Shown: positions 950-57,400 of the stretch, in pieces
Layout of the letters: each line of letters starts with the position of its first letter
How positions within the stretch are numbered: the stretch's first letter is position 1
From: Candidatus Danuiimicrobium aquiferis
GTDB taxonomy: Bacteria > Omnitrophota > Omnitrophia > Omnitrophales > Danuiimicrobiaceae
Assembly: GCA_001804285.1 (NCBI GenBank)
Contig: MHFR01000068.1
Location: forward strand, 103,230 to 167,229
Direction of reading: 5' to 3'
DNA length: 64,000 nucleotides
Translations under genes and position numbers: made by a program
The notes under the pieces: model-generated
The model's input: the letters and a program-made list of their open reading frames with translations, nothing else
What the model was told of the DNA's origin: nothing
Database searches by the model: none

Positions 950-961
950 GCCAGGCTCTGT

Positions 962-27510: not shown

Positions 27511-27555
27511 CCCCTCACCCCGCCCTCTCCCTGAGGGAGAGGGCGGGGTGAGGGG
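27511..27555. terminator. Perfect 21-bp-stem, GC-rich palindrome after the asmA-like gene. No U-tract follows, so it may be a REP-like or factor-dependent terminator.
   Basis: The sequence reads cccctcaccccgccctctccc-tga-gggagagggcggggtgagggg. Confidence 0.55.
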
Positions 27556-30723: not shown

Positions 30724-30832
30724 TGTCATTCCCGCAAGCCGTAGGCGGGAATCTCATGCCTTTGGATTCCCGACTACCCCGGAAAAGCTGGGGCCGGCCC
30801 TTTCTTTCCCAAGGGAAGCATTCGGGAATGAC
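30724..30832. repeat. Structured palindromic element of the GTCATTCCCGC family, in the orn-helicase intergenic region.
   Basis: It has a local hairpin (attcccgc-aagccgtag-gcgggaat). It also has a long-range inverted repeat (gtcattcccg at 30724, cgggaatgac at 30823). Confidence 0.5.
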
Positions 30833-36418: not shown

Positions 36419-39400
36419 ATGGCAGGTTCGACGAAACAGTTTATCTTAAGAATTATTGCGGGCGTTACATTATTGGCATTTTCAGTCAACCAAATTGGTT
36501 ATTCCAACCCAAGCCCGACTAATTTTTCAGCCCAACCGGTTACAGAGGTTCCGCTTCCGAATCCGGGATTCCAATTTTCGATTCCTCCAGAATTGGGGAC
36601 CGTTCAAAACCTGACATCCGGGTCGGGCGGCACGATCGTTCACATTCAAACCGCGCACGGAAATTACGAAGCCGAGAAACAAATTCAAGCGATTCTTCAG
36701 CATCTTCATGATCATTACGGATTTAATCTTTTACTTCTTGAAGGCGCCGGTGTCAAACTGAAACCGGAATTACTTCAATTTTTTCCTCAGAACAAAATCA
36801 AGACGTTTGAGCTTGCCGACAAGTTAACACACAAATCGCTCATGAAGGGTGCTGAACTATTTCTCATGCGGGCAAAGCGCGCGAAAGCATTCGGAATCGA
36901 AGACCTTAAAATATACCGGAGGAACCGGCGCGCCTTTTCGAGAGTCATGATGCGGAAAAAAGAAGCCGACGGGTTTTTGGAACAAATTGACCGGGGGATT
37001 AAACATTTTTCAGCTTTGTATTTGAATAAAGAACTGAGGACATTTTTAAATGAGTCGGAAGATTATGAAATGGGCAAGACGCCGCTTTTAGCATGGATCC
37101 GGTCGCTACAAAAAAATGCGGAGATTTTTTTAGATCTGGATTTATCCGATCCGAAAAATCAATTTCATTGGCCGATGACGCTTCGCCTGTTGAAATTGCA
37201 GGAGCTTGAGTCAAAGATTGATACGGAAAAGCTGGCGGAGGAGAAACGGAATTTTTTAAAGAAAATAAAACCTTTATTTGTGTCATTCCCGCAAAAGCGG
37301 GAATCCAGAATGATGGATCCCCACTTTCGTGGGGATGACAAGCAGTCTCGGATTGCATCGCCAATGTCCGGGACGACGGCTCGCAATGACGGCCGTCAGA
37401 ATAGGGGACAGGCAGTTCATCTGCCTGTCCCCTATTCTGGCCTGTACACCCAAATCGAATCCTTGCTCACGTCTCCCGCAAATATCCAGAATGAATTACC
37501 GGATCCCGAAACCGGACTTCTGTTCGAGAGGATGGCATCAAAACTTCCGAGGAATTTTAATTATCGCATGTACCCAAACCTGAATTATTTCATCGGCCGG
37601 TTAATTCTCCAAAGTGAAATTAAGGGGGAACTGTTACTTGCGGAAACCAATCATCTCGAAGAGTTGATTGTGAACCGCTTAGCGCAAAAAGAAGACGAAA
37701 AACAGCTTATGGAATTGCTCCGCGATTTTCATCTTTTAAAACGGTTATTCGCTTTAGCGCTTACGCCGGAAGATTACGAACAAATGACGAGCGATATCGT
37801 CCGTCATCCTGAGCCCCCAAAGGGCGAAGGATATGAGGAAAAGAGATTCTTCGCACTTCGCGCTCAAAATGACAGATTTCGTCCGAGAAACATGCTGCAA
37901 TCTTTTAACGCTTTAAACAAGGATAATCATGTTCAGAATTTACAAGTTGCTGGAATAAAAGATATCGATCTGCTCTATGAATCGGCTCTCGAATTTTATC
38001 GAATAGCGAAAAACCGTGATTGGGAAATGCTCGAAAATATTCAGAAGCGGATGAATCGGCTCGGTGAACGAAAAGCGATTGTCATTACTGGCGGTTTTCA
38101 TGCAACACCCTTCAAGAATTTCTTTTCTGAACACGGATATAGCTATGCGCAGGTTCGCCCCAAAATTTCCTCAACGGACGGATTCCAATCCTACATCGAC
38201 GCCATGCTTCAAAAATCCACGCTCGAGTCCCCGTATGTTTTCAGTATTCCGCCGGCAGAATGGATAAGGCACGGAATCAATCCAAGTTGGGTGAGACAAC
38301 AATTTTCTGCTGCGATGCGGGGGATGGCGGAGCGAAATCGGTCTGAAACGCGAAACAAAACAGGTTTACAAAAAGGGGACAGGCAATTGCTCAACAGGAG
38401 TCATATGCCTGTCCCCTTTTTGACTGACCAAAGCGCGCAAGAGTCCTCGATACGTTCCAAGGAGCATGTATCGAGGGCCGAAGCGCGCGGAAGAGAAGTC
38501 ACCAGTCGCCAGTCACTGGTCAATAGTGTTCCAGTGTCTAGTGATTTAGTATTTCAGGTAAGGGCTGAAGATTCCCGCCAGGGGCATGCGGGAATGACAG
38601 TAGAGCTCCATCGCAATGACGGTGCGTCAAGGGCCGAAGTCCGTCAGACGAAACAGGCGGAAATTGATACCCCGGCGTTTTATGCGGAATTGCCTAAAGC
38701 GCAATTAAGAAAAGTGGCATTTGCAATTCAGTTTTTGTTTGAAGATTCGTTTGCATGGCTTCCTCACGAAAAAACAGACATCAGCATCCCCAATATTGAG
38801 TCCGAACTGAAACGTTTACCGAATTACAAACTTAGGAACGAAGAAGAACTCGAGCGGATGCTTCCCAAACTGCGCCTCACAAACAGGGCAGCGCTTGTAC
38901 AATTTCTGGCGGTGTTAGTTGCATTGTTTGACAAAAAGGATGAAGAACGTGAGGCGGCGGAAAAGGCTGTGACGGAAACGGCTGAGGTGAAAAGCATAGA
39001 TGCTTCTACAGATGTTTCTCCTGAAGCGAAAAAATCGAAGTTATTCCATTTCGCTTTGCGTTTTATGGGGTTGGAAGAGCTTGTGCGATTTCGGACGATG
39101 AGGCGGACGAGCGGAGCGAGTAAGGAAGAGGAGAGGGCAGAAGATAAAAAAACGGATGCTTCGGTTGAAGCAGGTGAAGGAAAAGAACCGGATCAACCCG
39201 TTGACCGGCGGCCAACGAACGAAAAAGACGCTGCATTTTATACTCGAGATCTATATTTAACAGGCGGGCTGTCCCATCAAAACGCCTTGTCTAAAATTCT
39301 TGCATATCTTAAGGCCGGAATCGGTGATGTTGAAAGTGATTTGTTAAGGCAGCCGGTGTCGGATGTCCTTAAAACCTATGAGGATGATTTTCATCAGCGG

Positions 39401-42400
39401 GTTTTGAGCAGGGAGAAAATGCCATATTTTCAGGAAGTGGTTCCGGGTTTTGAGTGGCGCACTACCGTCCGGGATTTTCTTACATTGCATTGGAACCGGA
39501 TTCATTGGCCCGTTGTTTTATATCGTTTTATAGGATCGGATCCGGGCCGTTTTTTATTTTCAGCGCCTGTTTGGTTCATGATCGGTTCCTTTATCGGAGG
39601 GCTGACTGTCGCCGCTGCCTTTGCCGTCATTGTCAGGTATGTCTTGCGGCCGCTCTATGAAGGCGTGCTGTTTAACTTGGAAGCCAAAGCGATGAAACGC
39701 TATCGCGCAATGGCGTATGAGCCTTTTCCATACGGCCCGCATTTTATTTTTCAAGGAGATGATCTTTGGCGGAATGTCCGTCAAACCTATTTTCAAAGTG
39801 AATCGCTGATGCTTCCTAATGAGAAAAGTAATTCAGTCTTGAAGCTTTATGCGTTGGAACATGTATTGAAAAAATATCCTGGAACAAGGAAATATCGCTC
39901 CATTGTCCGTCGAGTGCGTGAGAGATTGTCATCCTCGTCTGAGTGGCCTGATATTCATGATGCGTGGACGATGGTTCATAATGCTGCAGTGCGCCAACGA
40001 ATTCAGATGAGTGATCCGGGCGTTAAGCTTATTCTTTATGTTCTTGAATTACCGGTAAGAGCGCCGCCGGCGACAGAAGCCCAAAGTCCACAAGGAAGGC
40101 GCAATTTTTATCAGCGATTGGTGCTGTTGATCCGCCGTTTGATTTTGATTGCTATTCAAAATGCAATTCTTCAACCCTTCCGGATATTGAGATCGTCTGT
40201 CTACTCTTTGAATTTGCGCGCAACTGCCCGGTTGATTGAGAAAATCGAAAATCGCATTAAAGCGTTTTTTAAATATCCTATCCGGGAATATTCAAGTGAA
40301 ATGTTCTCAAGCCGCAGCAATACGCAGGTTAAGAGTGTCATGGGCCTCCCTGATGAAGAGAAACGAAAACAAGAACTCATTCAATACTTAAAACAATTCA
40401 ACATTTCCGAGCTTGATCCTTTGATTGCGGAAATAGATCAAAGGCTCCATCTGAAATTCGACCGGTTTTTTGACAAGGAATGGTTCTCTCAAGCATTTTG
40501 GAATACGTTAACGGGGAACAGAGTTGTTTCCAATAAGAAAAGGAAAAATAAGAGCGAGGAAGCTATTGCTGAAAAACTTAGAGTTTTAAACGCACAATAT
40601 GAGTTTGATTTAGCCAATCACACGGTACTCCTCAATACCGAAATGCCGCTTTTTCTGAATGCGTTCATTTTGGTCAAGTTGGCCTCTCAACTTTATCAAC
40701 ACCATGTTGTGCGCGGAGAACGGGAAAATATCCATCTTCCTCCCGAAGAGTTGGAAAGCATTCCGAAGAAAATGTTGATGAAACTTTTCTGGGATGCGTT
40801 TAGAAACGGTAAGAAATATTTTAGTGACACGAAACAGCCGTATATGGGCAACTTGGCGATTTTTATCCTGATGATGGTGAAAGCGTGGGGTTGTAAAGTT
40901 TACTCATCGAATGACAAGCCGGGGATTCTTTACATTAAAACACATCGCATTACGATGCGTGCCATGATCAAGGCTAAAGAAGGGTTTGTTATCGGGAGCC
41001 ATTATCTTTTAGGAAAACGTTATCTTGGGATTACAAATCAAAAAAATTATCCTTTGGCAGAAAAAAAACACGGAGTTAGCAAGAAATTAAGTGCCGTATA
41101 TTCTATCCTTAAACCATTTTTTCCGATCCTCTCACAATTTGCCTGGATGCTGGGCTATTTGACTGCGGTGGTTGCGCTATTTAGCGGATTTTTTCTGCAC
41201 CTTGATTTAAGTTTCGTGATGCACTATTTGGATCAACTTATTCAGTGGCTGTCCACCATTGATTTTTTTGATATTGGGCCGATGATTGCGGCGATCTGGC
41301 ATTCAATTCAATCTGCGTACCATGATCTTGCGGCTGCGTTCAGCCAGATCCTTCATTATTTATTCGATATTGATCTGACATGGCTGAAACAGTTTTTCCA
41401 TGACCTGTGGCAAAGCCTTGAGCCTGTCCGTGCGTTTGTTGAAGATTATCTGGTGCCGTTTTTTTATCAATTTCTCGTACCCGCCCTGATTTTTGGATGG
41501 GGAATGATTTCCGGATTTCTTGCTTATAAAGTGCAATTAAGACAAAGGTTAATTCAAGTGGGAGATTACTTTATCTCTTTCGGAGCTCCAAAGTTGATTG
41601 CCTGGTTCATAACGGTTCCCGCTGTAATAGCTGCAACAACCCTGAATTTGAATACGGATAAAATTTTTGAATTTCGGGAACGGATTGAATCCGCACTTCA
41701 GACGAAATACATCGTTAAACCATTAAGTTTGATTTGGCATATGTTGGCCAATCTATTGTATGCAGGTTCTTTTCTCTTCGGCGTTGGTCTTTACTTTTTT
41801 ATGATGTGGCTGATTATTGATCCACAGCTTGGATTGTCGGGTTTAGCGGGCGGATTGCAGAGCTTAGGTTTGCCGGTACCGCCGATTGTGTTAATTGCCT
41901 ATGTGGCCGGCGTTGTTAGTCTTCCTTTTTCTTTTGTGTATGTTGTCTCGGATTTATTGATGAAAAAATTACCGGAACGCGGATTGTTTTCGGGCCGGCG
42001 AACTGTGTGGGGAATGATTGCGTTTTTGGGCGTGTTTGCCGTGATTACGCCGGTGGCTTTGAATTATACATTTCGTTCAAATTGGATGCGGTCAGATTAC
42101 GTTGCGAAAGAAAAGGCCAGGACGCTTTATGCAAAGCCGAGTATGGTTTATCACTATAGTTTGATGGGCAAAGAAGAGGCAAAGTTGAAAATTGAAGAAA
42201 TGAAAAAGGAACAAACTCAAAAAATTGAAGAAGTGAAAAAGGAACAAACTCAAAAAATCGAAGCGTTTAAAGCACAAATAGAACAAGCAGCGAGTCAACC
42301 GGCATATCCGTCAACGATAAGCCGGTTTAAGAAAAAAATAGAAGAGTTTTTTAAGCAGGACGACAAGAAAAAAAAGGTGAACGCGGTTGAAAGCAATAAA

Positions 42401-45400
42401 ACCGCAGAAGATATGCAAGCCTTCGTCCATTTCTTTTTCGAACGATTTTATCGATTTCAGAAGTATAAGGGTATGGAAAATATTGTTGATCCGGAAAACG
42501 GCATCCTGCTGGTCAAGACTATAGACGAGTTGAAATTGCATAAACAGGATATTTTGACAGCGATACAAAATAAGAATCGCGCAGTATATGGCAATATGCT
42601 TTTTTGGGAAGGACTATTCCGAACATTTGCTGTAAACGGTCCTGGTTTTTATGATGCGTTTACACCTGACGAATGGAAAACCGTTCTCAATCATGTTTTT
42701 GATGTGTTGGAGGGGAAAGTGCATTATCGGCATTTTCGCCAGCGTTATTTTGAAGAGAGGAAAGCACTCAATGTTATTGATTATTTTCTGTGGGGTAATT
42801 TATCGAGCTTGCACCGATTGCATCTTTATTTTGAGGGTGTTGGGACGGTGAAAGGCGATTTTCAGAAAGTATCCATTCTCTATCTAATGATGGCTGATAG
42901 TCCGTGGGGGTATGTTTTCCCAAGTGCGGATCATTTTACCGTATTAGATCCCGATCGTTCGGGTCTATATCTATCATTTTTTGAAGATCCGTCGATTGCG
43001 GTGGGGATTCCGGAAAATCCTTGGGCAAAATCCAATTCTAAGGGGGGGCTTCCTACTGCAAAAGCACCGCGTGTTGCCGTAAACGTTTCACCGGAAATTC
43101 GGAGTTTAATGGTTGAAACGATTGAGCGCCTTGTCAAAACAAAAACAGGGGATCAAGATGTTCAGTCTTTTATTTATTCCAGAAACCTTTGGTTTAATGG
43201 ACACAATACTGCCGATTTTTTGAAATCAGATCTGTTAAAGCAGGCTGCTCCGGTGAGGCCGAAACCGCTCAGCACAAAACCTTACACAACAACCAAGCCG
43301 GCAGAACGATCCGGAAACGTTCAGAGCCAGGGGCGGGCTGAAGTGCGCAATGTCACGCCAAAAACGGGGACAGGTTCTGTATCAGTGAAACCAGAACCTG
43401 TCCCCGTTCTGGCGAGGGCTGAAACTCGCGACGAAGCGTTGGGAGGGCGAGTGAGCGTGAAGGAAGAAGATGTCTTTAAAGGATCGAAACTTCTTAAATG
43501 GCTTGGTGCCGCGTTTTGGGGGTTGGGTTGTGCGGCGTTTCTTTATGGCGCATACGGCGTTATTTCGCTTTCGGATCTTTTTGTTTCCTACTTGCCGGTG
43601 CTTCTTGAGGGCTGGCTTATTATTGGAACTGCCGTGCTTGTCAGCCATTACAAAAATCAGTTGCAATATTGGACGCGGCTTTCATTGATGACCGGTGCAA
43701 CCGTGTCCGTTTTCTTGCTCTTTCACAAACTCGCCGCTTACTACTGGCCGGTGTTTGGTTTGAATCCCGACATAAAGCTGTCAACAAGCATGATCGTCCG
43801 CTTGCCATCTATCTTTTGCGGAGTTTTTATCAACGAGTTGATTCGGGTAAAAAGATTTTTTAATTTCGAATTCAAATTAGGCTGGGAAGAAGCGAAGCCC
43901 CATTTTATCAAGGCATTTAAATGGGCGATTTCTTACGGAGCGATTACGGGATATTATTTTTATGTTGTTTTGTACGGCTTTATCGGACCGTATATTCCAC
44001 AGGCGAATTATTTTCCGATGATGACACCTGATATGGGGACGGCGATGATGAAAATGTTTTTTGACCTCGCGGTGACGACGCCCCTTGTCAATATTTGGAC
44101 CGTAAGTGCGGTTAGTGTGGCCTTCGGAGAAGAGGTGGATGTTGCCCAAAATTGGAGAAACCAGCTGGAGGGTTTTCTGTTATTTTATCCTTTAACATCT
44201 CTTTATTGGATGGTCGCGCTTTCTATATCATGGTTTCTCTTCCCGGATGGCCTGGATGGTTTTCAGGCCTCTCATGCGCTTTTTTCCACTCTTTGGCAGA
44301 TAGCATTGCCGGTATTTATTGTTAAGTTTTATATCGGAAACGGAAAACGCGGCAAGTTGACCGGTCAAAAGCCTGCTCCGGTTCCTCATCTCATATGGGA
44401 AAACCAATCGGTTTCCGCAATATCCCGCAGAGTGGACGTGCGTCCCAAGAACGCAAACACAGGAATTACGGTAAACCGCAGCCATCTTCGTGCTTTGGCA
44501 ATCAATATGGTATTTGCCGGAGGAGCTGTGGCGGATAAAGCGGCTCAATGGGCGCTGAGTAAAACATTGCCTGTAGCGGCGAAATTGCTTTGGCCCGGAA
44601 AACCGCGGCGATCAAAGACGTCAGACCGTTCCGAAGTTCGCAACAATGAAAATAATGCCAAAACGATTGTTGATCGAGGCGAACAAGAGTCCTCGATACG
44701 TAGAGGGCTTGTATCGAGGGCCGAAGCGCGGCAGGAGGAATATGAAGTCGCGAGTCAACCGGCGGCTCCACATATCAGGAATTTGAAGCAAGTAGTCACT
44801 GATGTTCAAACAGCGGTTTCCGAACTCAATATTCGCGGCCTGGAGGTTTTTGTTTTCGGTTCGCGGGCAAATGGGAAACCAAGGGATGGTAGCGACTTGG
44901 ATTTGATCGTTTTAGTTTCCGAGACCATGGATCAGGCTGCTGCCATGGCGATTATTTGGCAAAATGATGAAATTGAAAAACGACTTTCAGAAAAGCTTAA
45001 AACAAAAAGAGATTACCGTGTGCAATTTCACGATATTAATCCGGCAACCCGGCGGCACTATTTTTATTTGTGGAAGACTCGACAGTTTTTTAAAAAAAAT
45101 ACCTATCTTTGGTTTGTTCAGGCAAATTCAATTCAAGGGTTTGAATTGCATGCAGATGGAGTTGTTCCGGTGGATCTTGATCGACTGGAAAGTTTAACGC
45201 CGCTGCCGATCAATCTTGCGAACGATATAGCAGGCTTATCTCCTGAACAATCTCGGAGTGAAACGCGGCAAATGGGATTCGCAGAAGAGGACGAGGAAGA
45301 CTCTGACGATGACTTCATGCTCGATGGTGAAGACCTGGATATAATGCCTGGCGAATTTTCAGTGAAGCCCCAACCGCCTTCCGGGGCTGCCAATCAATTG

Positions 45401-48400
45401 AGTGGCGGCAAAGAAGAAAAAAATAAGGGAAAAAGATTTCCAGCGGCGCGTCCTGATGATTATCCCTCTCCGGTTCGATCCATCATTTCCAGTGGACTTA
45501 AAATTGACGAGGACACCTCGCTTCCTTCTGCCCGACGGTCCGAAGTTCGCCTCAAAAAAGATAGTACAGAAGCGATGCTTCATCAAGGCGCACGAGTGTC
45601 CTCGATACATCCCAAGGGGCCTGTATCGAGATCCGAAGCGCGCAACATTTTACAAAAAGGGGACAGGCATATGACTCCTATTGAACAATTGCCTGTCCCC
45701 TTTTTGACTGACCAAAGCGAACGAGAGTCCTCGCAGTTGCGGCGAGGGCCAAAGGATGCCGCTGCGAGGGCCGAAGTTCGGTCGGATTTCAACAACGCGA
45801 CAGATGAACAAATCATGACTGCGCTAAAACAAATCGGGTTATCCGAGCGGCAAACCCGGAACCTTTCCACTTATCTTTCGAAAATCAAACGCGTTTTGGC
45901 ATCGGGCCGGCGGTTTCGATCGCATGAAGAACTCCGCGTATTCATGGCGGGTGTTTTGGGGGTGCCTGAATTGGCGGCGAAATTCGCAGATCATTTCTTT
46001 GAAAAGTCTGCTTCTCAGCCTGCGGCAAAGCCCAACAAAGCTCCTTCAAAATCATTTCAATTTAATAGAACAGTTGAACAGGTGATCGGCAAGATGCCTT
46101 TTAGCGTGAATGTTTTGTCAGGTCCGAACAGGAAAAAACTTTATGACGGAAAATACGTTCCCAATGTTGTTCAGGTTGCCAGCCTTGGCGTGAGAGAAAG
46201 AATAGCAGCAAGGCACATCGTCTATTCTAAATTTCTTGATGTGTTGGAAGAGTATACACACCTGACAGAAGCAGAATTGCTTCATATGGGTTTTGTCTAC
46301 AGGCAGGGACCTTCATCTTTATATCTTTCAGAAGTGGTTCGTCCTATTCTCCAATCAACCGGAGCAAGTCATGAAGCGCAATCGGCTTTGGCTCCGGCTA
46401 TTCTGGAAATTGCCAAAAGCATGCGCGAAGCCAAAGCGCTCAGCGGGGATGAAGTGCTTAAAGCCATTTTTTCTAATTTGGGTGGGATCGATGGACAATT
46501 CAGCCAGCTCATCGCCTATTTGAACCACATTCAATTTAACAAAGGGAAAAATCCGCGGCTGAAAGTGCCGGATGAGAAAGTACAAGAAATAAAATCCATT
46601 GGTGAAGTGGAAGAGATAACGATTTGGTTTGTTAAAGCCGGGTTCCTTACGAGTGTCGCAATGGCAGAAGTTAAATTCAAAAGTAGTACAAATCGAGCGC
46701 CCATTCGTTTTGCGATTAATGTCGCTAACGATAGAACGATTTCCGCGGAGAAAGTGAGGAATGCATATCGTCATATGCGAGCTGATTATGATTTAGATTC
46801 CCGGTTTGTTGCTGAACCGATTGGGTTGGGAACCGAGATTGCGCCGGTGATCATCAGTGAGTGGGTCGAACAGAGTGACGAACTTCATTTGTATGCGGAT
46901 ACCGGATTTCAGCAATTCCAGGTTTGGAGCGGCCAAAATATGCACAACAACCAAAAAGTTTCGCTTCAGGACTCCCGGAAAATTTGGCGACAAATTATTC
47001 AGATACAAACGATGTATTCCGGGGTGAGGCCTGACGGTGCCGGGATGTCACGGCCATGGATCAATCGCGGGGATTTTGTGCTGACGCGTGATTCGCAAGG
47101 GGAACCGCGTGTTGTATTAATTTGGGATGACAGAAGTAATCTTGTTACGGGACAGAAGATTCCGTGGGACGCTATTGATAGCGTTGTCAACAGTTTGATT
47201 TGGGGGGAAGTTGACCCGGACAGCGGAAAATATATTTGGGCAGATGATCCGGAATTAGCGATTCGAGCGATTGAAGACGGGTATTTAGAGCATAGGCAAG
47301 ATAAGATGGAGGCGAAAGCTGAACTGATCGAAATTCTTAAGATGGTCTATAGAAATAGACTTCCTGAAATTATTAGGCAGCCTTCTGTCATTTCGGCGGG
47401 TTTTGATGATTTTGATCCTGCTGAACTGGATCATTTTATTTCTGTCGCTAAGCATGCACACAAAGTGCTGGGCGAATTTTTGCAGCAACGTTCTGAAGTT
47501 CGGGAAGAATCTTTTGCGGTTGACGGTGAAAAAGACCTCACCATTGAAGAAATCGATGCGCAAATGAAGACGGACGGCTTTCCGGAAATGGAATGGTTAT
47601 GGAAGACATTCAAAGGGATGAAAATATGGAAGGGCGTAAAACTCCGGCGTATCAACTTAGCCGATATTGATCCCGGAAAAATTCAAGAGATGCGCACCAG
47701 GCATATGGGCGGTTTATTGGCGCGTCCTTTGGTCATGGCTTTGATGTCGGTTTCCATTATGTGTATTGCACTGTCCGTTTTTATGCTTTCCGTTTCTGCT
47801 CTGCAAGATGTCATGCTTTCGCTGCAGGGCTATCCTGTGGGTGATTGGCATAGTTTCTGGAAGAATAATGTCGAACCGATTTTTCGGATGTTTCGCAATC
47901 CGCTGATATGGATGGCGCTTTTATTTTCAACGCCGGTGGTTTTTTTGCCGGCAACGGCAATCAAGCGGGCGTTTCTGCTGTCCTGGAAGAAAATTTCCGC
48001 ATTGGACCTTGCGTTTATGTTAAGCAAACGGAATTACCGGGAATGGTTCGAGCAGACGCCGGGGGCGCAACAAACGGTCGCCAAACTTCGCGGCATGGGA
48101 ATCAATGAAAACTTTGATAATCCTGATTATGCTCGCCGCTATCGCGCCACGACCAAAGGTGTTGTGGAAGTGCCGATTCCTGCTGTCCCCAACGTTCATG
48201 CCGTTCTGAAGGAGGTACTCGGGGAAGTGCGTGATGGAAAATACGAGCGGGGCAACTACACGACCAGTCTAAAACACGGAAGGAAATCCGTGACGGCTTT
48301 TGTCGCGCAGAATAAAAGGGAGGTTGAGCTCAGCAAGCCGCCGAGGCCCAGGTATGCGTGGCCTATCCCTACGTTCATCGGCTTGCTCATGGGTTTTTAT

Positions 48401-51400
48401 TCGATCGTTTATTTCCCGAGGACGCCTATGTGGGGTCTTTATTTGGTCGTGATGTCCATTATAGCGCCCGGAATATATTTTGTAAGTACTGCGCTTAACA
48501 TTGCTCCCGGAATTTTATATTACAAAAGAACGCGAACCTACTTGTCTCAAATCATTGCGGGAAACCGCCCCAAGTCTGGAATTGAAATTAACATGGAACA
48601 ATTGGGGATTAATGTTCTGGAATATGAAAAAGAAAAAGTGTATGAAAATCGCGAAGCAGGGACGCGAATTGTTATCAGAAATAAGAAGACATTGGAAGGA
48701 GCCGTTAAATTTTTAACTTCGAGTGAGGATATCGGCAACTGTATTGCGCTTCATAATTTTGTGTCATGGGTCCTTCCGACTTTACTTGATGATGATGGCA
48801 TTCAACTGGCCGACATCTATTTCAAAGGGACGCACGATGTTTATACTCATCGGGCCCAAATGTGGATGGTCGCGGCGCAGGAAAATGGGGTTCCCGTATT
48901 AACGGTGAATAGTTTTGAATTCAATAATGACGGTTCCACACACATTAACCGCTTAATGCCGGAAGCGATTAAGGCGTTACAAGATGTTGCGGTAAGGACA
49001 GGGTTCAAGAAGCACATTTATGTGGGAATTTCAGAATTTGGGCGCGAATATCTGGATAGTCATTTTCCCCAGGGCAAAACACAGAATGACATTGAAAAGA
49101 TTCATCATCCTGACGCCGGCTACAGATACTATTTCGATTCCTATGCGTTGAGGGGATTTCCTTGGGGCCATAGGCGATATGTGTTTTTGAAAGAGAGAAG
49201 TCTGACTAAACGAATTTACGCGGTTATCTTTGGCATCATTGAGGTGTTTAAAGGAAATTTTTCAAAGGCCAAAGCATTTATTAGCAGCGCAAAAAACGTT
49301 CATAATTTCTGGGAAATTCCGGTGGAGAATGCTGGCCAAGCCATTAAAGAAACTGAAGAGGCTCGTTCTGAAGTGAGAACGCAAAGGCTGCTGGATGATA
49401 TTGGCCAGAATTCCGGAGATATTGTTCAGCGTTTGCATGACAGCCAGATCAGATATTTGGAGAAACAGGGTGTTGAAAAAAATTTTCTTGAAAGAGTCTC
49501 AAGGCTGCCGGTCGATGAATTGTTTTCCGAAGCAATTAATTATTTATTGGCGAGGGAAATCAAAAAAACAGGGGTCCGGCTCCTTCCTCAAGCCGAAGAA
49601 ATAGTTGATTTCATTTTACGGCAGAATCTTCCCGTGTTGATGATGACAGGGACACCGCATGACTATGTGAATTTGAGAATTGCCCATCATCCTCTTGCTA
49701 AGCGGATAGCCGAAAGTGCGGGGATTTGGGGCGCTCATGAAGACGAAATTCGTATGGGTTATCCCGGTAATAAACTTGGCGGCATACGGGCCTTATCCAG
49801 GGATCCGAAATACGGGGCGGGAAGAATTCTGAGTATCGGTGACGGCGAAGCGGAGAAACAGGCGGCAAGCAAGACAGGGAATCCGTTCGTTTTGATTGAT
49901 CCTTTGGTGCAGGAAAATATGACCGCGGTGCTTCCCGAAAAACCCATGATCGTTCACGATCTCGCCCGGTGGCGCGAATGGCTTCCAAATTTATTGGAAA
50001 AGCAGAATATTAAAATTGTGGTTTTTGATTGGGATGGAACATTGTCTGACAGTCAGTCGGCCGTTGAAGAAGTTCAGACAAGGCTTCTTTACGGGATATG
50101 GAAAGGTTTCAATGATGAAGCTTTAGAAGAACCCGAAATCATAGCAGAACTTTATGAAACATCTTTTGGGAGAGAAGCTCTGCGGATGATGCAAAGTATC
50201 CGCGGACTTTCAGCGCAACGAAGTTTCAGCGAATATTTTATGCCGTTGCTGATCAAACCCGCCCGTGCCGAGGTTCGGGAAAATGAAAATGAGTTACCTG
50301 AGGTGCCTGAACCGCCATTAGAGTTGGAATTAACGGGGAGTGCTTCGGTTTCCGATGAGACAGTGATTCTTCCTCCTGATGTGACTTCTTCACAAGGTGA
50401 ACAGCCGGAAGATGTAAAATCGGCGGAAGATCAGGTCCGGTTTGAAGACGAGGTTATCGAACCGGATGGCCAGATAGATACTGAAAAGTTAAATATTCAC
50501 ACTGCGATCTACGAACCAACCGGGAGTGGCTTACTTGATGAAGTTGATGAACAACGGGAATCAGTGGCGCCCGGAAATAATGATACGGTGGTGTTGGCAA
50601 GCCCTGTTTTGGATTTGTCGGGCGATTTGCCTGCGACATCGTTGAATATTGAAAATTTTATTAAAGCAGATCTTAAGCTGGGGATGCTTTCCGACAATTT
50701 AAAACAGTATGAAATTAGACATCATCAATCGGATTGGCTGATTGAACATGAGATTCGTGTGGCGGTGCTTGTGTTTCAACTCGGCAAACAATTGAAATGG
50801 GATCCGGACGAGTTAAGAGAACTTGTTTTTGCCGCGAGATTTCATGACATCGGAAAAACCGATTCGTCTATCAATCCGCTTATTGTTAATAAACCGGAAG
50901 CATTGACGCCATCTGAGAGAGACTTGATGCGTCGGCATCCGCTTTATGGCGCCAGGATTCTGGAAGAAGCCGGTGTCGATTCCAAACAGATTTTAGATGC
51001 GATGTATATGCATCACGAGGCGCTCGACGGAACGGGTTATCCGAGCCAGCTTAAAGGAGATTTGATTGATCGGGGCGGAAGAATTCTAAAAATCGCAGAT
51101 TCATTTGACGCAATGGCATTTGCCCGCCCTTATTCACAGCCGAAATCGCTCGAAACCATTTTGAAGGAATTAGAATCCGACCGCGGTTCACATTTCGATC
51201 CGGATTTGGTTAGGGAATTTGTGAAATTGGAAACTTTCCCCGCAGGTGGACGTGCCGAAGTACGTGACATGACGCCCAAAACTGGGACAGGCAATCGTTT
51301 CCTTTTCATTGGATTGTCAGACCAAAAAGGGGACAGGCATATGACTCCTGTTGAGCAATTGCCTGTCCCCTTTTTGACTGCCAAAGAGCTTGTATCAAGG

Positions 51401-54400
51401 TCTGAAGCGCGGCAGGACCATGTTGCAGATGAAATAAGGGCTGAGTTCCAAACTATCGTAGCTGTCGCGAAAGGGAAACCGAAAAGAATCAAAGGATTGA
51501 GTTCTATTGTTGATTTTGAAAGCGGACGGCTCAGGGCCAATTTCCCGAGGCCAATCGGTGATACCGTTGGAAAGACGAAAACGATCGGCCCCGTCAAAAA
51601 CCTTGCTGATTTGGAACTTGAAATTTTCAACCTTGCGACCGGCGAATTCCGGATGGATTTCTATTATAAGAAAACCGGTGAGAAGAAATTTGAGAAGGAT
51701 CCTTTGAGGATGTATTGGGTTCCTGAAAAGAAAGCGTTTCTTGTTGAGCGTGAATATCAGCTGGAAAGAGTCAACGCGGCTTTCCGCCGGCTGCGCGAAA
51801 CGAAACAAAAGGGTACTGAAGAAATCAGAGAAACAATAGGTGACATTAGCGCGTTTATGAATTTACAGGTTGGTGGCACTCCGGAAGCATTTCAGACGCC
51901 GGATGGCGAGTCCGTGGAAAAACCATTTTTTACCGGTGCGGGTGTCGATCTCGACAGGATGTCGCTTGTGATTGTCAAGGAATCGCAGGACCGCTATCGG
52001 TTGGAATTTGGTTATGTGTATACGGTTGAGGATGAAGAAAGCCATGAAAAAATAAAAAAAGAGGGTATTGCGGTTGTCTTATGGGAACGAAACAAGAAAG
52101 CAGATGATTATAAAGGCTACATCCGCCGAAAAGATAAACAAATTGAAGAACTTCGGAATGCGTTCAAAGAATTATTAAATCCCGCATTGCCGGTTGGTTC
52201 TGCCCGCGATATAGAGGATGTGCGGGAGCTTTTTCACTTGCCGACGGGCCTCATGCAGATCGCTTTCCCGACACCCGACGGAGGAAATATTGGTGGCGGA
52301 AAATCTGAAGAGGAAGGCAGGAGAGGCATCGGGGCGTCTGCGGACCTGGAATTTATTTCGGCGCGTGTTGTTAAAACGGCCGATGAACAGCTGCGGGTTG
52401 ATTTTTATTATAAGACTCGGAAAGACAAAATTATCCGCGAGGAACCGGCAAGCATTGCTTGGGACGGACTCAGTTACATATTCCCATCGGATGACATGGG
52501 GTTGACGGACAAGGAATTTCGCATGCGTGTTCTCAAAGGGCGTATTCTCGAAGAACTTTTATATCGATTTTTTGCGAAAAAGCAGAGCGACACAATGTCA
52601 TCCTCCGGCTTGACCGGAGGATCCATGGATTCCCGCTTGCGCGGGAATGACAGAGGATCGCGGATAGAATTCGAAAGAGAGTTTCTTGTAGATGAGTTTA
52701 CGAAAGAGTACCGTTACCCGACTTTTTTTGTGGAAGGTGAGTTTGTCGGCGCCTGCAAATGGGGTCGCAGCGCACATAGCATTGTTGAGACGGTCCTGAA
52801 ATTATCCCGGCTCCAGAAGTTGAGCGGGCGCACGGAGCCCATTCGGTTGATTGTGTTTGATGCCGCGAAAGTGGACGAAGCCATGGAGGCGCTCAGAGCT
52901 ACGCAAATCAACGGAATTCCGTACGAAATTATTCCTGCCAGTGAGTTGCTGAAACGGACCGGCCCGCCGAATGGCGATGCTGTTTCGATGCTCGAGACAT
53001 TAAAGGATGTCCGTCAGAAAGAGCTTGCAGGCGATGAAACAGGTCTTGAGAAAATGTATGCGTCGTTACGTGAAGAAAGTGGTGCTCCGGTCCGCCGTTA
53101 CAAAAAAGGGCTTCAACTTCAGCATGAGGCCGACTGGCAAAGTCATTTGATCAATCATTATATCGAGGAAGGGCCGGAGAAAATTCTTTCTGTGCTTGAT
53201 TCCATTCAAGAACATCAGTCCCCATACTGGGAATGGGCCTACCATTTGCGCTTAATTGCGTTTCTTTCTTATTTGTATCAAAAAGTTGAAGACGGCCGCG
53301 TGAGAAAGCGGATTCTGGAAATTTATCCTGATATTGAAAAAGATCCCGGCGCATGGCAGAAGATCGTTCAATATTACAAACTGCGGGAATATGGCCCCGA
53401 CGCCGAGGCGCGGATTCATGCGCTTATTCGGACGCAAGAACTCGATGAGAGTGAAGACATAGAAGAGGCTGAAGAAGTTCCGGCGCCCGCGGCCGAAAGA
53501 AAATCGCGGATGACTCATGCGGCTGCGTTTGATTTTGGAAGGTTTGAAGTGACCGTTGATCGAACGATCAGCCGGCAGATGAAGCGGCACCACATCACTG
53601 ATTTAGATAAGGCCGTTCCGGCGGTCGATATGGCAGTCACGCCGGATGTCAAGGCTGCCACACTTTTGGAGACCATTGCCGAATTCCGGAAGTTATTTGC
53701 AAGAGTGACCGACCCTTACGACCCCTTCCAGCGGATGAGCCTCTTTTTGTCGCAAAAGAAGGAAGACCTCAAAGATATTCCGGCGGCCGAGAGGCATGCT
53801 TTGTTACGGCAAGTTGTGCAGGCGTTTGTCATGTATTTTATCGATGTGAAGCGGTTTAATGACAGCCGGTATAAATTTTTTACGGGATATAAAGGCGGTT
53901 TGGGGAATGTCGGATTCGGGGACTTCTTACGGTCTCTTGATGCCACCGGCAATCTTATTTTGGTCGAAGATGATTTTGGGCCCGGCGTGAGCGGCTCTCG
54001 TTTGTTAAACGAATTCGAAACCTTTGCCAAAACGCTTGGTATCCCAGTCCCTCGTCTAAGTTTCGATCCGCATGCAGCTGCAGCTTCGGGAAATGTTCCG
54101 ATTCCGGCAGCTGTTTTCTTTGCTGATGAAATTATCCGGAGAGCCGATCGCGGCAAACTTGTAAGAACACCGGAGGATCGAAGGGTGATCCTCGATTTTA
54201 TCGGGGCGATTAAAAGCGATCAACAGCGAGTGGTTAAACTTGCGGCGGCGGCAAAAGGCGGAGTCAATACGAATCAAGTCGGTTTTAATGAAGCGGTGGT
54301 CAAAGATCTCCACGATCAAGTAAAACGGACAGGACCTCAAAGTTTTCCCGAGAAGTTGGAAGAGAGAATCGTAAAGTTTGCTCAAGGGATTATTCAAATA

Positions 54401-57400
54401 TTTTCGCATGAAGGGTTGGCGCAGCCTTCGATGTACAATGCGGCGAACAATGCTTTGGATCTCCGGGTGAAAAACATAGCGCGCATGAAAGAGCTTCTGC
54501 ATGCGATTCCTCAGGATGAAATTGATGAGAAGGAACTGGAAATTCTTCTCCAGGTTTACATTGCGTCTGTCTCGACGATCTTCGGGGTGGCGTTTGGAAA
54601 AGCCTGGGACCGGGAAGATTTCGATCAACTAAAAGTACTGCTTGACGGCAAAGGGATTATTTCACGAAAAGTACTGGATCAGCTTGGTGCGGAGGGAAAT
54701 GTCCGGCCTGTCAAAGAAGCGATCCCGATCGCCGCGCTCAATGAAAGGTCCTTTGAATTTTCGCTTTCCTATTTCTTTCCCGAATTATCACCCGAACGCG
54801 TTTTGCATCTCGCGGTTTTGGGTTACGAGCTTTTTGATCGCATTGCCCGGGAAAACGTGATCGCCAACCGCACGTATGATGCCTGGCTGCTATTGAATAT
54901 GGTTTCAAGCCGTTCCTTTGATTCAAACAAAAATGTGAGAAATCACAGGGGGCTGATTAACAACCGTTTTCACACCGCGCCGATGGTTAAGGCGCTTGAT
55001 GATCTTCACGCCTGGCTGAAAAAACAAAATATAGATACCTCAACGGTAACGTATCCATTTTCCGGAACGGATTTGACCACAGCGCTTTTACTGACGGATG
55101 CATCAACTATCAGAATGTATGATGCGCTTCCGTTTGGAATGGATATGAATCCGCGTGACTATGAAGCCTATAAAATTTCCTATGTCGCGCATAAAGCGGC
55201 AAGCGGAATTATTCTCGACAATGTGGCGAGCGCGATCGGACACGCAAAAACGCCGCTCTTATGGGAGCTCGAGGCGATCGGGGCAAAAGACATTAAGATC
55301 GAGTTGGACGATGAAGACGTGAATATGTACCGCATTCATTTCAAATGGGCCTACGACAAAGATTCCCCTCTCAAGGAGCGGGTAATTGAATACCGGGAAT
55401 GGATTTTTGAAGAGCAGGAAGACTTTGACGGGGCCGTGGATCCGAAACGCGATACCGTTTATTTGCATAAAGGAACGATGGCAAGCGGGATTTATAGTTC
55501 CAAACTTCCGAACGTGATTATTTCTTTCGGCGGTGAGACCGTCAAGGGTTATCAAAAGATTCCGGTAAAGCGGATTATCCAAATTCCGGACCCGAAAAAG
55601 TTGGCGCCTGCCCACACATTCCGGTATCCCCAAATTTCGGAAGCGGCTGTGCTTATCAAATCAAAAGTTCCCCTTGAGCTTGCTTTACGCCCGGAAGAGG
55701 AAGAGGGAATTCAACCGCTGACAGCCGAGGAAAAGGACGCGATCCAAAAAAGCATTTCAATTTCTAACGGTGTCGCTGAGGTTTTGCGGGAAGACAAAGG
55801 AAGTATTTTGTTAACGGGTGAAACCGATTCGGCCCATCTTTTTGGAAAACGCCTGCAGTATCGCCAGATACCGGATGATTTAAAAGTTTCTGCGGTTCCG
55901 GCCGAATTGTACAAAGGCAAAAATGTTTTGGTGGTGCCCGGATATGGAAATCTTCCGTTCACATTAAAAGAATTGGGCGCCAGAAGTGTTGTAGCCATAG
56001 ATAAAGATCCGGGTGTTATAGCGTGGCAGCGAGCCAAACAGATTTACGCGGGCGATCCTTCAGTCCAAGCGATGAACCGCGATGAGGCCAAAGATCCGAA
56101 TGAATCACTGGAACGGCTTCACGAACTGGTCATGACGGACGCTGAGCCGATTGAGCCTGTGGACGGAATCCGTTTTGCAGCTGCTGATCTGACAGAAAGA
56201 CTACCGATTGAAGACGACAGCATGGATTTGATTGTCGTTCCTTATTTGTTTGGATTTGAGCGCGGGATTACGACGGTGGATGGTTTCGAACGCGGCCTTG
56301 CCGAAATTTTGCGCGTCGCGAAGCCGGATGCTACGATTATCATTTTGCCTTCCGGACTTTCAGACGAAGCGCAGTATGTGAAGGGAAGTAAACTTCCTGA
56401 ATTTTGTCGCTGGCTTCGGGCACAGCAGGGATTAGTCATTCAGGAAAGCGCGCCAATCCCGCTCTATAATTATTTAGATGATCCGGCACGGCAGACTACG
56501 CCGCCGCTCGGCCATTACGCGGCGATTTCCAATCAAGGGCCTTCTATTTTTTATGGAGACACCTACGGAAAGTTAACGCCTTCTGCAGGATCCTTTTTCA
56601 GGTCATTAAATCAGGAAATCGGCGGCTATCACAGCAAATTTCCGCAATATTACCGTGACCACATTGCAAACAGCCATGGTCAGATTCTGAAAGGTGCGGA
56701 AGGCTTGTCAGGGATGGCTGTGGTGCTGGGCCTCGGGAATGGAATCGATATTCCGTTGAAATTGTTGGCAAAGCAGTTTGACCGCGTCATTGTAATTGAT
56801 TTAGACGCGGAAACGGTGAAACAGACCGTGGCGAAATTGGACGAAAATCTGCGGCGCAAAATCGAAATCAGGGTGGACGACCTTTCCGGGATTCTGCCGG
56901 AATTCTCGCACGAGGTGGATAAAATTGTAGCAGAGGCTCCGAGTCCGGAGTCGGCGAGGGAACGCATTCTATCGTTGGCGAAATCGATAGAAATCAGGAA
57001 GAACGCTCTGGCGGGCGTTAAAGCATCTTATGTTACGTCGTCTGTTGTTCTTTCACAGCTTATTTTTACTGCGCATCAATATGCGGTGGATCAAATGCGA
57101 AAGCGGTTTAGCGTTGATGAATCGTTTCTGACCAGCTTTCTGGATTATCGAAAAGCATTCTTGTATGACTTAATGGTCAAGGTGGCGTCTCATTATTTGA
57201 GCAGCATTCATGGAACTGTTCAGCCTTCCGGACGTGTTTATTTTGCGGACGGGCTTCACGAAACACCCGTTGAGGAAAATGCTATAGGCGTCAGGCGCGG
57301 GCTTGCTCAGCCTGAGCCAAAGATTCCGGTTACGGTTTTTGAACTGATCGAACAATGGTTTACAAGGGACATTGCTCAGCACACGTATTGGGTGTGGGAC

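What the first reader, a model, noticed from the sequence alone, without database searches (positions are those of the whole stretch)
38371..51375. One class B element carries its loop in inverted orientation. This looks like a footprint of stem-mediated inversion or of bidirectional insertion.
Flanks and stems are co-linear in all three long class B copies (the ...acaaaaaggggacaggca and cctgtcccctttttgactg... flanks match). The 22-nt loop at 38386-38407 (aattgctcaacaggagtcatatg) is the exact reverse complement of the loops at 45670-45691 and 51340-51361 (catatgactcctRttgaRcaattg). Recombination between the 15-nt inverted-repeat arms would flip only the loop. Both orientations stay open in frame (KGDRQLLNRSHMPVPF versus KGDRHMTPVEQLPVPF). 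This could be a mechanism that generates sequence variation in the giant protein.
Basis: seen in the sequence. Interest (0 to 1): 0.6.

Follow-up and report, generated by a model that had tools for sequence, protein, structure and literature searches.

The report
Flipped hairpin repeat inside giant gene
A 54-base palindromic repeat lies three times in frame inside a 15,706-residue Omnitrophota gene and one copy has its loop reversed, but this looks like the ordinary behaviour of a selfish, terminator-like hairpin repeat that can sit in either orientation, not a programmed switch that diversifies the protein.

Summary
Three 54-nt hairpins lie at 38369-38422, 45653-45706 and 51323-51376, each with a perfect 17-bp stem (CAAAAAGGGGACAGGCA) and a 20-nt loop. 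They sit in frame in a giant ORF. The loop of copy 1 is the exact reverse complement of copy 3 and matches copy 2 at 18/20. The surrounding linker sequence is co-linear.

The interpretation as a variation-generating mechanism is not supported:
- The element belongs to a palindromic repeat family of Omnitrophota. Other copies lie in intergenic spacers at gene ends, flanked by A and T tracts like a bidirectional terminator, in both orientations.
- One copy is a 28-residue in-frame insertion in an RlmI rRNA methyltransferase that 119 orthologues lack.
- Four assemblies of the same aquifer population show copy 1 in one orientation.
- No recombinase domain is found anywhere in the 64-kb window.
- A 20-nt segment is very short for recombinase-mediated inversion.

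Most likely a duplicated linker cassette (class A + class B) suffered a single, now fixed hairpin-mediated flip, or conversion by an inverted copy. Independent insertion in the opposite orientation is the main rival. This is a new member of known kinds: REP/SPRITE-like repeats, Rickettsia-palindromic-element-like coding insertions, and plastid-type minute loop inversions. Interest is modest. The repeat-built linkers of the giant gene are the more intriguing part.

The parts
38369..38422 (.). Class B copy 1. Stem 38369-38385 / 38406-38422, loop 38386-38405 = ATTGCTCAACAGGAGTCATA (the flipped orientation). Read as QKGDRQLLNRSHMPVPFL.
   Evidence: RNA fold -40.2 kcal/mol, z -8.9. nhmmer 69.3 bits on the minus strand. 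Same orientation in 4 assemblies. Homology of module 1 to the stand-alone protein P0001 ends here.
45653..45706 (.). Class B copy 2. Loop 45670-45689 = TATGACTCCTATTGAACAAT. Read as QKGDRHMTPIEQLPVPFL.
   Evidence: Fold -30.7 kcal/mol, z -8.4. nhmmer 67.0 bits on the plus strand.
51323..51376 (.). Class B copy 3. Loop 51340-51359 = TATGACTCCTGTTGAGCAAT. Read as QKGDRHMTPVEQLPVPFL. It is 54/54 identical to L122:6215-6268 in another giant ORF.
   Evidence: Fold -39.0 kcal/mol, z -7.8.
37395..37441 (.). Short-loop relative of class B (21-bp stem with 1 mismatch, 5-nt loop, core GGGGACAGGCAG). Read in another frame as RQNRGQAVHLPVPYSG.
   Evidence: Fold -43.1 kcal/mol, z -9.7. nhmmer 23.9 bits. 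The stand-alone homologue P0001 aligns only weakly here, just after its 34-residue gap.
43361..43410 (.). Class B variant (stem ..GGGGACAGGTTCTG, 12-nt loop) lying directly between two R-A-E-x-R motifs. Read in the third frame as TPKTGTGSVSVKPEPVPVL.
   Evidence: Fold -40.1 kcal/mol, z -8.2.
51277..51299 (+). Half copy (left arm only, CAAAACTGGGACAGGCAATCGTT), 24 nt upstream of copy 3. Read as PKTGTGNRF.
   Evidence: 1 mismatch; I4; 10.6 bits.
36419..64000 (+). Giant ORF that holds all copies. It runs off the window and is 15,706 aa in the public record. It is a mosaic of enzyme-like and membrane modules joined by repeat-rich linkers.
   Evidence: no stop in 27.6 kb. (gene call). (NTP_transf_2, HAD, HD_5, Methyltransf_11, TPR).
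38423..38488 (+). Class A linker half downstream of copy 1: ACTGACCAAAGCG, hairpin CCTCGATAC..GTATCGAGG, then RAEAR. It is co-linear with 45707-45781.
   Evidence: (D3-D5), (z = 13.1).
45536..45643 (+). Complete class A linker without B (RSEVR, hairpin 1, hairpin 2, RSEAR), immediately upstream of copy 2.
   Evidence: (D1, D3, D6).
45707..45781 (+). Class A linker half downstream of copy 2, ending in RAEVR.
37281..37345 (.). Another palindromic repeat type (GTCATTCCCGC..GCGGGAAT + ATCCCCAC..GTGGGGAT) read in frame as SFPQKRESRMMDPHFRGDD. An inverted relative lies at 52626-52652.
   Evidence: (I3). It is an insertion relative to the stand-alone homologue P0001. Several contigs break here.
37802..37875 (.). 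Third palindromic repeat type (GTCATCCTGAGC...GCTCAAAATGAC) read in frame as RHPEPPKGEGYEEKRFFALRAQND. It is also an insertion relative to P0001.

Best explanation
What it is:
- Class B is a short palindromic repeat of Omnitrophota. It has an 11-nt core stem (GGGGACAGGCA), A and T tracts outside the stem, and a conserved 20-nt loop.
- It behaves like REP or SPRITE-type terminator-like repeats in intergenic DNA.
- It behaves like Rickettsia palindromic elements when it lands in genes. It is tolerated in frame in loops and linkers because it carries no stop codon in the frame used.

Where it sits in the giant gene:
- It lies inside a recurrent linker cassette: R-A/S-E-x-R, then class B in place of a small hairpin, then a second hairpin, then R-A-E-A/V-R.
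- The cassette has been copied within and between giant genes.

Why one copy looks flipped:
- The two arms are perfect reverse complements right up to the element's ends. Any event that turns the element round leaves the arms unchanged and shows up only as a reversed loop.
- The most likely event at copy 1 is a single, non-programmed flip inside an already duplicated cassette. Candidate routes are template switching or recombination across the 17-bp arms of the extruded hairpin, or short-patch conversion templated by an oppositely oriented copy such as copy 3, which is identical.
- The flip was then fixed because it keeps the frame open.

Shown:
- the anatomy;
- family membership;
- intergenic and coding contexts;
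- co-linear flanks;
- fixed orientation in assemblies.

Inferred:
- the flip mechanism;
- that the cassette was duplicated before the flip;
- that intergenic copies act as terminators.
For: Anatomy:
- 17-bp perfect stems and a 20-nt loop.
- Strong folds as RNA (-31 to -43 kcal/mol, z -7.8 to -9.7) and as DNA (-23 kcal/mol, z about -8.5).

DNA-level nature:
- The same core is read in all three frames: KGDR, RGQA and TGTG.

Family:
- Six further long-loop copies lie in five metagenome loci.
- Two lie between convergent genes (L120:721, L123:568).
- Two lie between tandem genes (L120:1805, L121:9218).
- These four have A/T tracts, non-conserved outer flanks, and both orientations occur, two of them 1.1 kb apart on one contig.

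Coding insertions:
- L124 encodes an RlmI homologue (PDB 3c0k, E = 3.7e-91). Residues 270-300, which include KGDRHMSQDDQLPVPF, have no counterpart in the E. coli protein.
- They are absent from 119 Omnitrophota orthologues, most of them 392 aa against 420 aa.
- Module 1 of the giant protein aligns with a 648-aa stand-alone protein (E = 4e-101). The alignment has gaps at two other in-frame repeats (37281-37345, 37802-37875), aligns only weakly over the short class B relative at 37395-37441, and ends at copy 1.

Same cassette elsewhere:
- L122 (= P0003) and P0005 are other giant ORFs with unrelated modules but the same linker. L122's class B copy is 54/54 identical to copy 3.

Co-linear flanks with a flipped core:
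- z = 13.1 direct, -0.7 flipped.
- Copies 1 and 2 share the junctions TTTA|B|ACTGACCAAAGCG.
- No empty TTTA|ACTGACC site exists and there are no target-site duplications.
- B-less linkers carry a different small hairpin at that place.

Not programmed:
- One orientation in four assemblies.
- No recombinase domains.

Precedent:
- Hairpin-loop 'minute inversions' recur in plastid DNA literature.
- Repeats inserting into one another, and terminator-like SPRITE repeats, are described in pneumococcus. RPEs insert in frame (PMC10969869).
Against: - No orthologous locus was found in the other orientation, so the flip was not caught in the act. Its direction and timing are inferred from four cassette copies only.
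- Insertion of this family into genes does occur (the RlmI case), so a second insertion into a similar linker cannot be excluded.
- Consensus assemblies cannot reveal minority orientations, and raw reads were not available.
- Some of the four assemblies may derive from overlapping samples. L125 is identical to the window over 20.3 kb.
- The bias among coding copies (five TATG-type in frame 0 against one ATTG-type) is not what random insertion plus a stop-codon filter predicts, which would be 1:3. Something else, such as the peptide, the RNA or cassette copying, shapes orientation, and I have not identified it.
- Terminator activity of the intergenic copies is untested. The consensus terminator scan cannot see 20-nt loops.
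Confidence: 0.62

Rival explanations
1. Independent insertion. Class B is a mobile palindrome that entered similar class A linkers more than once, in either direction. Copy 1 is simply an insertion in the opposite orientation at the same preferred site.
For: - The family inserts into new places: the RlmI insertion is absent from 119 orthologues.
- Intergenic copies have unrelated flanks and both orientations.
- In other bacteria, repeats insert into one another and cluster.
- The repeated unit ends exactly at the palindrome, since outer flanks are not conserved among intergenic copies.
Against: - Copies 1 and 2 have identical junctions on both sides (TTTA| and |ACTGACCAAAGCG). All four cassette copies have class B at the same point relative to the class A second half.
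- No empty site of that form exists in the window or held loci.
- B-less linkers have 26 nt of other sequence there, so class B would have had to replace it twice.
- Copy 1 is in frame 0 like all the others, although its orientation is open in all three frames.
Confidence: 0.25
2. Programmed or recurrent switching. The hairpin is a tiny intragenic invertible element that toggles between two peptide versions and so diversifies the giant protein within a population.
For: - Inverted repeats flank a segment that is open in both orientations.
- Intragenic invertons that recode proteins exist in Bacteroides.
- Assemblies often break at or near these repeats, which would also happen at a heterogeneous site.
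Against: - Four assemblies agree on the orientation of copy 1 and two agree on copy 2.
- No recombinase domain was found in 64 kb.
- The invertible segment would be only 20 nt. The recoding example cited in that paper is 57 bp, and that paper treats very short (7 bp) flips as enzyme-independent events.
- The same hairpin occurs in intergenic DNA and in a housekeeping gene, where diversification makes no sense.
- Contig breaks are explained by repeats alone.
Confidence: 0.06
3. Assembly or sequencing artefact. The palindrome was assembled with its loop the wrong way round.
For: - Hairpins cause library and assembly trouble.
- Two ENA contigs end inside class B stems, followed by Illumina adapter sequence (L127, L133).
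Against: - The same orientation appears in four assemblies made by different pipelines and from different samples.
- Inference: a 17-nt stem is shorter than the k-mers and reads used, so loop and unique flank are linked within single reads.
Confidence: 0.02

Closest known systems
Rickettsia palindromic elements (RPEs)
   Same: A palindromic repeat family found in frame inside unrelated protein-coding genes, adding a short peptide in a tolerated loop and absent from orthologues (description of RPEs in PMC10969869).
   Different: - Class B is about 54 nt, against about 150 bp for RPEs as reported there.
- The phylum is unrelated and no sequence similarity was tested or claimed.
- Class B is also common in intergenic DNA and looks like a terminator.
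- Many copies lie in linkers of giant multi-module ORFs rather than in ordinary enzymes.
[quoted passage not shown]
   Same: Short, multi-copy hairpins. They are mostly intergenic at gene ends, occur in both orientations, cluster with and nest inside other repeat types, and have a stem plus T-tract architecture.
   Different: - Terminator activity has not been shown here.
- No REP-associated transposase (RAYT) was seen in the window, and the rest of the genome could not be searched.
- In-frame coding copies are not a typical feature of REP or SPRITE.
Minute hairpin-loop inversions of plastid genomes
   Same: The inverted segment is exactly the loop of a hairpin bounded by perfect inverted repeats, with co-linear flanks and no dedicated enzyme. 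The topic recurs in the plastid papers found. The classic reference, Kelchner and Wendel 1996, is from my own knowledge.
   Different: - Those inversions lie in non-coding spacers and are seen to flip repeatedly between close relatives.
- Here the site is coding, and only one state per locus has been observed.
Intragenic invertons (Chanin, West et al., bioRxiv 10.1101/2023.03.11.532203)
   Same: Inverted repeats inside a gene, with inversion recoding a few residues without breaking the frame.
   Different: - Those are proposed to be invertase-mediated and are detected as mixed orientations in reads.
- Here no mixture was seen, no invertase was found, and the segment is only 20 nt.

Membership tests
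Intragenic inverton (phase-variable DNA inversion) | Inverted repeats flank a segment inside a gene | tested here: met
   17-nt perfect arms around a 20-nt segment in the giant ORF.
Intragenic inverton (phase-variable DNA inversion) | Both orientations coexist at the same locus in a population | tested here: inconclusive
   Only one orientation appears in four assemblies for copy 1 and in two for copy 2. These are consensus sequences, and raw reads could not be examined.
Intragenic inverton (phase-variable DNA inversion) | A site-specific recombinase (invertase) is available, often nearby | tested here: not met
   No recombinase, invertase or transposase Pfam domain in any ORF of 150 aa or more of window 1-36 kb, in the called genes of 24.6-36 kb, or in the giant ORF part held. 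The rest of the genome was not searched.
REP / SPRITE-type terminator-like palindromic repeat | Short multi-copy hairpin with conserved sequence | tested here: met
   Nine long-loop copies score 58-69 bits against one profile. Short-loop relatives occur in the window and in 12 Omnitrophota loci.
REP / SPRITE-type terminator-like palindromic repeat | Predominantly intergenic, at the 3' ends of genes, in both orientations | tested here: met
   Four of the six copies outside the window are intergenic: two between convergent genes and two between tandem genes. Both orientations occur. All copies in the window are coding, so the word 'predominantly' rests on a small sample.
REP / SPRITE-type terminator-like palindromic repeat | GC-rich stem followed by a T tract (and preceded by an A tract if bidirectional) | tested here: met
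   A4-6 GGGGACAGGCA ... TGCCTGTCCCC T4-7 in all nine copies. Actual termination was not tested.
REP / SPRITE-type terminator-like palindromic repeat | Associated RAYT (IS200/IS605-like) transposase in the genome (REPs only) | not testable with these tools
Rickettsia-palindromic-element-like coding insertion | Repeat present in frame inside genes of unrelated function | tested here: met
   Found in three giant ORFs with unrelated modules and in an RlmI methyltransferase.
Rickettsia-palindromic-element-like coding insertion | Insertion absent from orthologues, with the host protein otherwise intact | tested here: met
   The 28-aa insertion is found only in P0006 among 120 RlmI orthologues. The E. 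coli RlmI structure sequence lacks it.
Rickettsia-palindromic-element-like coding insertion | Sequence homology to the described RPE families | not tested
   No RPE sequences were available to compare. None is expected, given the size and the phylum.
MITE | Terminal inverted repeats plus target-site duplication | tested here: not met
   No direct repeat flanks any of the nine copies.
Hairpin-loop minute inversion | Only the loop differs in orientation while the flanks outside the inverted repeat are co-linear | tested here: met
   For copy 1 versus copy 2, the downstream flank gives z = 13.1 direct and -0.7 flipped. The loops are 18/20 reverse-complementary.
Hairpin-loop minute inversion | Orthologous sites differ in orientation between close relatives | not testable with these tools
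   Only near-identical assemblies of one population were retrievable. No orthologous giant gene from a related species was found.

The most novel reading that the evidence does not exclude
The palindromic linker cassettes (class A with its R-A/S-E-A/V-R motifs, with or without the class B hairpin) may be more than passengers. They may be the glue that builds Omnitrophota 'multi-enzyme' giant genes. On this reading, stop-free, terminator-derived repeats spread between neighbouring genes, or recombine with one another, and fuse ordinary genes into one reading frame. The conserved R-A-E-V-R peptides then serve as processing sites, so the giant ORF acts as a polyprotein that replaces an operon. 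Hairpin flips like copy 1 would be by-products of that repeat activity.
Probability: 0.12. Interest if true: 0.8.

Novelty: new member of a known kind. Interest (0 to 1): 0.35.

Why it matters
The flipped loop itself is a small, probably neutral rearrangement of a kind long known from hairpins elsewhere.

What is worth knowing:
- Omnitrophota carry palindromic repeats that are tolerated in frame inside genes, from a housekeeping rRNA methyltransferase to 15,000-residue proteins.
- The linkers between modules of their giant 'multi-enzyme' proteins are built from such repeats.
- The two preprints on Omnitrophota giant genes that I searched (bioRxiv 10.1101/2023.11.21.568195 and 10.64898/2026.06.07.730766) contain none of the words palindrome, hairpin, linker or polyprotein.

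Practical consequences:
- These repeats break assemblies.
- They inflate 'novel' protein sequence.
- They could mislead domain or disorder predictions.

If the repeats help to fuse genes, they would bear on how giant genes arise.

Tried and rejected
1. Cross-phylum homology of the stem.
I first read this as a phylum-spanning element.
- I rejected that reading. For a hairpin, only one 11-nt arm has to coincide (4^-11 per hairpin). Across 185,579 genomes, tens to hundreds of coincidences are expected.
- The loops and outer flanks are unrelated, except within a few genome-specific families. Only the 12 Omnitrophota loci look related.

2. Population fragments through protein search.
- An 801-aa query made of the three linker regions gave 2 distant hits.
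- A 72-aa peptide query gave nothing.
- The exhaustive profile search of 1.84 billion representatives gave 3 hits.
- The giant protein itself is not returned by these indexes.

3. Rfam: no family matches anywhere in the window.

4. The consensus terminator scan does not report class B, because it allows loops of 3-8 nt only.

5. Viral contigs: no long-loop copy, and one stem match.

6. Literature search for the core sequence found only unrelated eukaryotic primers.

7. No target-site duplications or empty insertion sites were found.

8. A larger inverted duplication of 12.9 kb between copies 1 and 3 is rejected. Flanks are not reverse-complementary and the ORF is intact.

9. Covariation in the weak inner stem of the loop: too few and too similar copies to say anything.

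Full report
**Where the window comes from**

- The window is part of contig MHFE01000007.1 of GCA_001805325.1, a MAG from an assembly series whose neighbouring accessions are titled Omnitrophica bacterium RIF.... Proteins of the related loci are closest to Omnitrophica proteins.
- Bases 1-36 kb hold ordinary genes: glycosyltransferases, FeoB, Dus and a helicase.
- From 36410 to the end one frame has no stop codon in 27.6 kb.
- The public record calls a single gene there from 36419, with a 15,706-aa product.
- Pfam recognises only scattered enzyme domains: nucleotidyltransferase, HAD, HD, methyltransferase and TPR.
- This matches the 'multi-enzyme' class of Omnitrophota giant proteins described in a 2026 preprint.

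**The observation**

- Each is a 54-nt hairpin: CAAAAAGGGGACAGGCA, a 20-nt loop, then TGCCTGTCCCCTTTTTG.
- Copy 1 (38369-38422) is 100% reverse-complementary to copy 3 (51323-51376) over all 54 nt, and 96% to copy 2 (45653-45706).
- A profile built from nine family members scores every copy 58-69 bits in its own orientation and 28-31 bits in the other, where only the stems match. The orientation difference is therefore real.
- Both orientations are open in the frame used.
- The folds are very stable as RNA and as DNA.

**What 'co-linear flanks' really shows**

- The arms are perfect reverse complements up to the ends of the element. Turning the whole element round is indistinguishable from turning only the loop.
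The test has to use sequence outside the 54 nt.
- The downstream flanks of copies 1 and 2 align strongly in direct orientation (z = 13.1) and not in flipped orientation.
- Both copies share the junctions TTTA|element|ACTGACCAAAGCG.
- In copies 1 and 2, and in a copy in another giant ORF (L122), class B sits where hairpin 1 would be.
- So class B lies at one and the same point of a recurrent linker cassette, and in copy 1 its core is reversed.

**What class B is**

- It acts at the DNA level. Relatives in the same gene are read in the two other frames: RGQA...LPVPY at 37395-37441, and TGTG...PVPV at 43361-43410.
- A scan of metagenome contigs for the long-loop form found six more copies in five loci.
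- Four of them are intergenic:
  - two lie between convergent genes, one 3 nt after a stop codon;
  - two lie between tandem genes;
  - all have A tracts before and T tracts after the stem, with outer flanks that are not conserved;
  - both orientations occur, two of them 1.1 kb apart.
- That is the look of a bidirectional intrinsic terminator that has become a repeat family. Pneumococcal SPRITE and enterobacterial REPs are the comparable cases.
- One copy lies in a giant ORF of at least 3,183 aa. Its modules are unrelated to those of the window, but it has the same linkers. Its class B copy is 54/54 identical to copy 3.
- One copy lies inside an RlmI-type rRNA methyltransferase gene.
  - The protein aligns with E. 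coli RlmI (3c0k, E = 3.7e-91), except for residues 270-300, IHRKGDRHMSQDDQLPVPFSIGTNGTGEGIY.
  - Among 120 Omnitrophota orthologues only this one has the insertion.
  - Several others carry different repeat-like peptides at the same loop.
- Module 1 of the window's giant protein aligns with a 648-aa stand-alone protein (E = 4e-101).
  - The alignment has gaps where two other palindromic repeats lie (37281-37345, 37802-37875) and is only weak over the short class B relative at 37395-37441.
  - It stops at copy 1.
- This is the behaviour described for Rickettsia palindromic elements.
- There are no target-site duplications, so it is not a classical MITE.

**How the flip most likely arose**

Two explanations survive.

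(a) A cassette that already carried class B was copied, and in one copy the palindrome turned round. Possible routes are template switching or recombination across the arms of the extruded hairpin, or short-patch conversion templated by an oppositely oriented copy. Copy 3 and L122 are exact matches.

(b) Class B entered similar linkers twice, in opposite directions.

I favour (a), for four reasons:
- All four cassette copies have class B at the same point.
- Copies 1 and 2 share both junctions.
- No empty site exists.
- Copy 1 uses frame 0 like every other coding copy, although its orientation would be open in any frame.

Explanation (b) stays alive because the family does insert elsewhere.

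One thing neither model explains. Among coding copies, five are TATG-type in frame 0 and one is ATTG-type. Random insertion with a stop-codon filter predicts 1:3.

**Is it a programmed switch?**

Nothing points that way:
- Copy 1 has the same orientation in four assemblies from the aquifer, made by different pipelines. Copy 2 has the same orientation in two.
- No recombinase domain occurs in the window.
- The invertible segment would be 20 nt. The paper on intragenic invertons gives a 57-bp recoding example and regards very short (7 bp) flips as enzyme-independent.
- The same hairpin occurs where protein diversification is meaningless.

Consensus sequences cannot exclude a rare minority orientation, so read mapping remains the decisive test.

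**Comparison with what is known, and novelty**

- The element works like REP/SPRITE repeats in spacers and like RPEs in genes.
- The flip is like the minute loop inversions of plastid hairpins.
- It fails the tests for an inverton (no mixture seen, no invertase) and for a MITE (no duplication).
- I file it as a new member of known kinds.
- The two preprints on Omnitrophota giant genes that I searched contain none of the words palindrome, hairpin, linker or polyprotein. The repeat-built linkers therefore appear undescribed there, though the library is not exhaustive.

**Verdict**

- Observation: confirmed.
- Interpretation: partly supported. The inversion or bidirectional insertion is supported. 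A variation-generating mechanism is not.
- Interest: 0.35.
- The more novel possibility is that such stop-free palindromic cassettes fuse genes into giant polyprotein-like ORFs. The evidence suggests it only weakly:
  - the same linkers occur in unrelated giant ORFs;
  - module 1 exists as a stand-alone protein elsewhere;
  - R-A/S-E-x-R occurs 19 times against 0.12 expected, with synonymous codon variation.

Noticed in passing
window 38339-61213 (19 sites, e.g. 38474-38488, 43334-43348, 50264-50278, 61106-61120): The peptide R-[AS]-E-[AVTL]-R occurs 19 times in the 9,197 residues, against 0.12 expected from composition. It mostly lies at module boundaries. The codons vary synonymously (Ser as TCT/TCC/AGT, Arg as CGN/AGR), which suggests selection on the peptide and not only on the DNA. 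The same motif recurs 12 times in P0003 and 19 times in P0005 (both counted), and motifs such as RAEVR are also present in P0002; all three are other long proteins. A protease or processing site is a possibility.
   Followed up: partly
window 37281-37345, 37802-37875, 52626-52652: Two further palindromic repeat types are translated in frame in the giant ORF. One is GTCATTCCCGC..GCGGGAAT, read as SFPQKRESR / MDSRLRGND. The other is GTCATCCTGAGC..GCTCAAAATGAC, read as ..RFFALRAQND. The first two sites are insertions relative to the stand-alone homologue P0001.
   Followed up: partly
window 960-1197, 8409-8441, 27511-27555, 30741-30777: Intergenic spacers upstream of the giant gene are packed with hairpins. 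There are six in a row at 960-1197, and a perfect 21-bp stem CCCCTCACCCCGCCCTCTCCC-TGA-... at 27511-27555. Copies of several of these recur next to class B in L120, L121 and L124.
   Followed up: partly
P0007, P0033, P0040, P0047, P0072, P0105, P0110, P0113 (Omnitrophota RlmI orthologues; alignment): The same surface loop of RlmI that holds the class B insertion in P0006 carries other repeat-like peptides in P0040 and P0113 (e.g. SPQPSPQRGEGESVEGE) and short KGDR/KGDP remnants in P0047 and P0072. P0007, P0033, P0105 and P0110 carry similar repeat-like insertions (e.g. PLSSPTGRGEPACRAGRGE) at other positions. These look like hot spots for in-frame repeat insertion in this phylum.
   Followed up: partly
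L127 end, L133 end, L128-L132 ends (window about 37310, 37445, 38385, 38488): Contigs from independent assemblies of this population stop at the palindromic repeats. Two ENA contigs end inside a class B stem directly followed by Illumina adapter sequence (AGATCGGAAGAG).
   Followed up: no
P0004 (219 aa): A protein made of tandem 27-residue units, FISFPGQKGDRHLTSVPR(L/R)FHAG. It looks like a translated array of hairpin repeats that share the KGDRH reading of the GGGGACAGGCA core. Its origin is unknown.
   Followed up: no
window 42188-42253: Two tandem copies of a 33-nt unit (97% identical) encode KIEE(M/V)KKEQTQ twice inside the giant ORF (D9).
   Followed up: no
L001-L115: The 11-nt stem GGGGACAGGCA / TGCCTGTCCCC forms hairpins in many phyla. 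Some are genome-specific multi-copy families, for example a Lachnospiraceae MAG and the Olsenella/Thermophilibacter group. I attribute the sharing across phyla to coincidence among very many hairpins, but this was not tested.
   Followed up: partly
window 38386-38405 and the other loops: The loop is bounded by two palindromic hexamers that overlap the stem ends, CATATG and CAATTG. Both are invariant in all nine long-loop copies, but the scan that retrieved the six non-window copies required both hexamers, so this says little. The middle of the loop varies. A flip swaps their positions but keeps both. No explanation.
   Followed up: no
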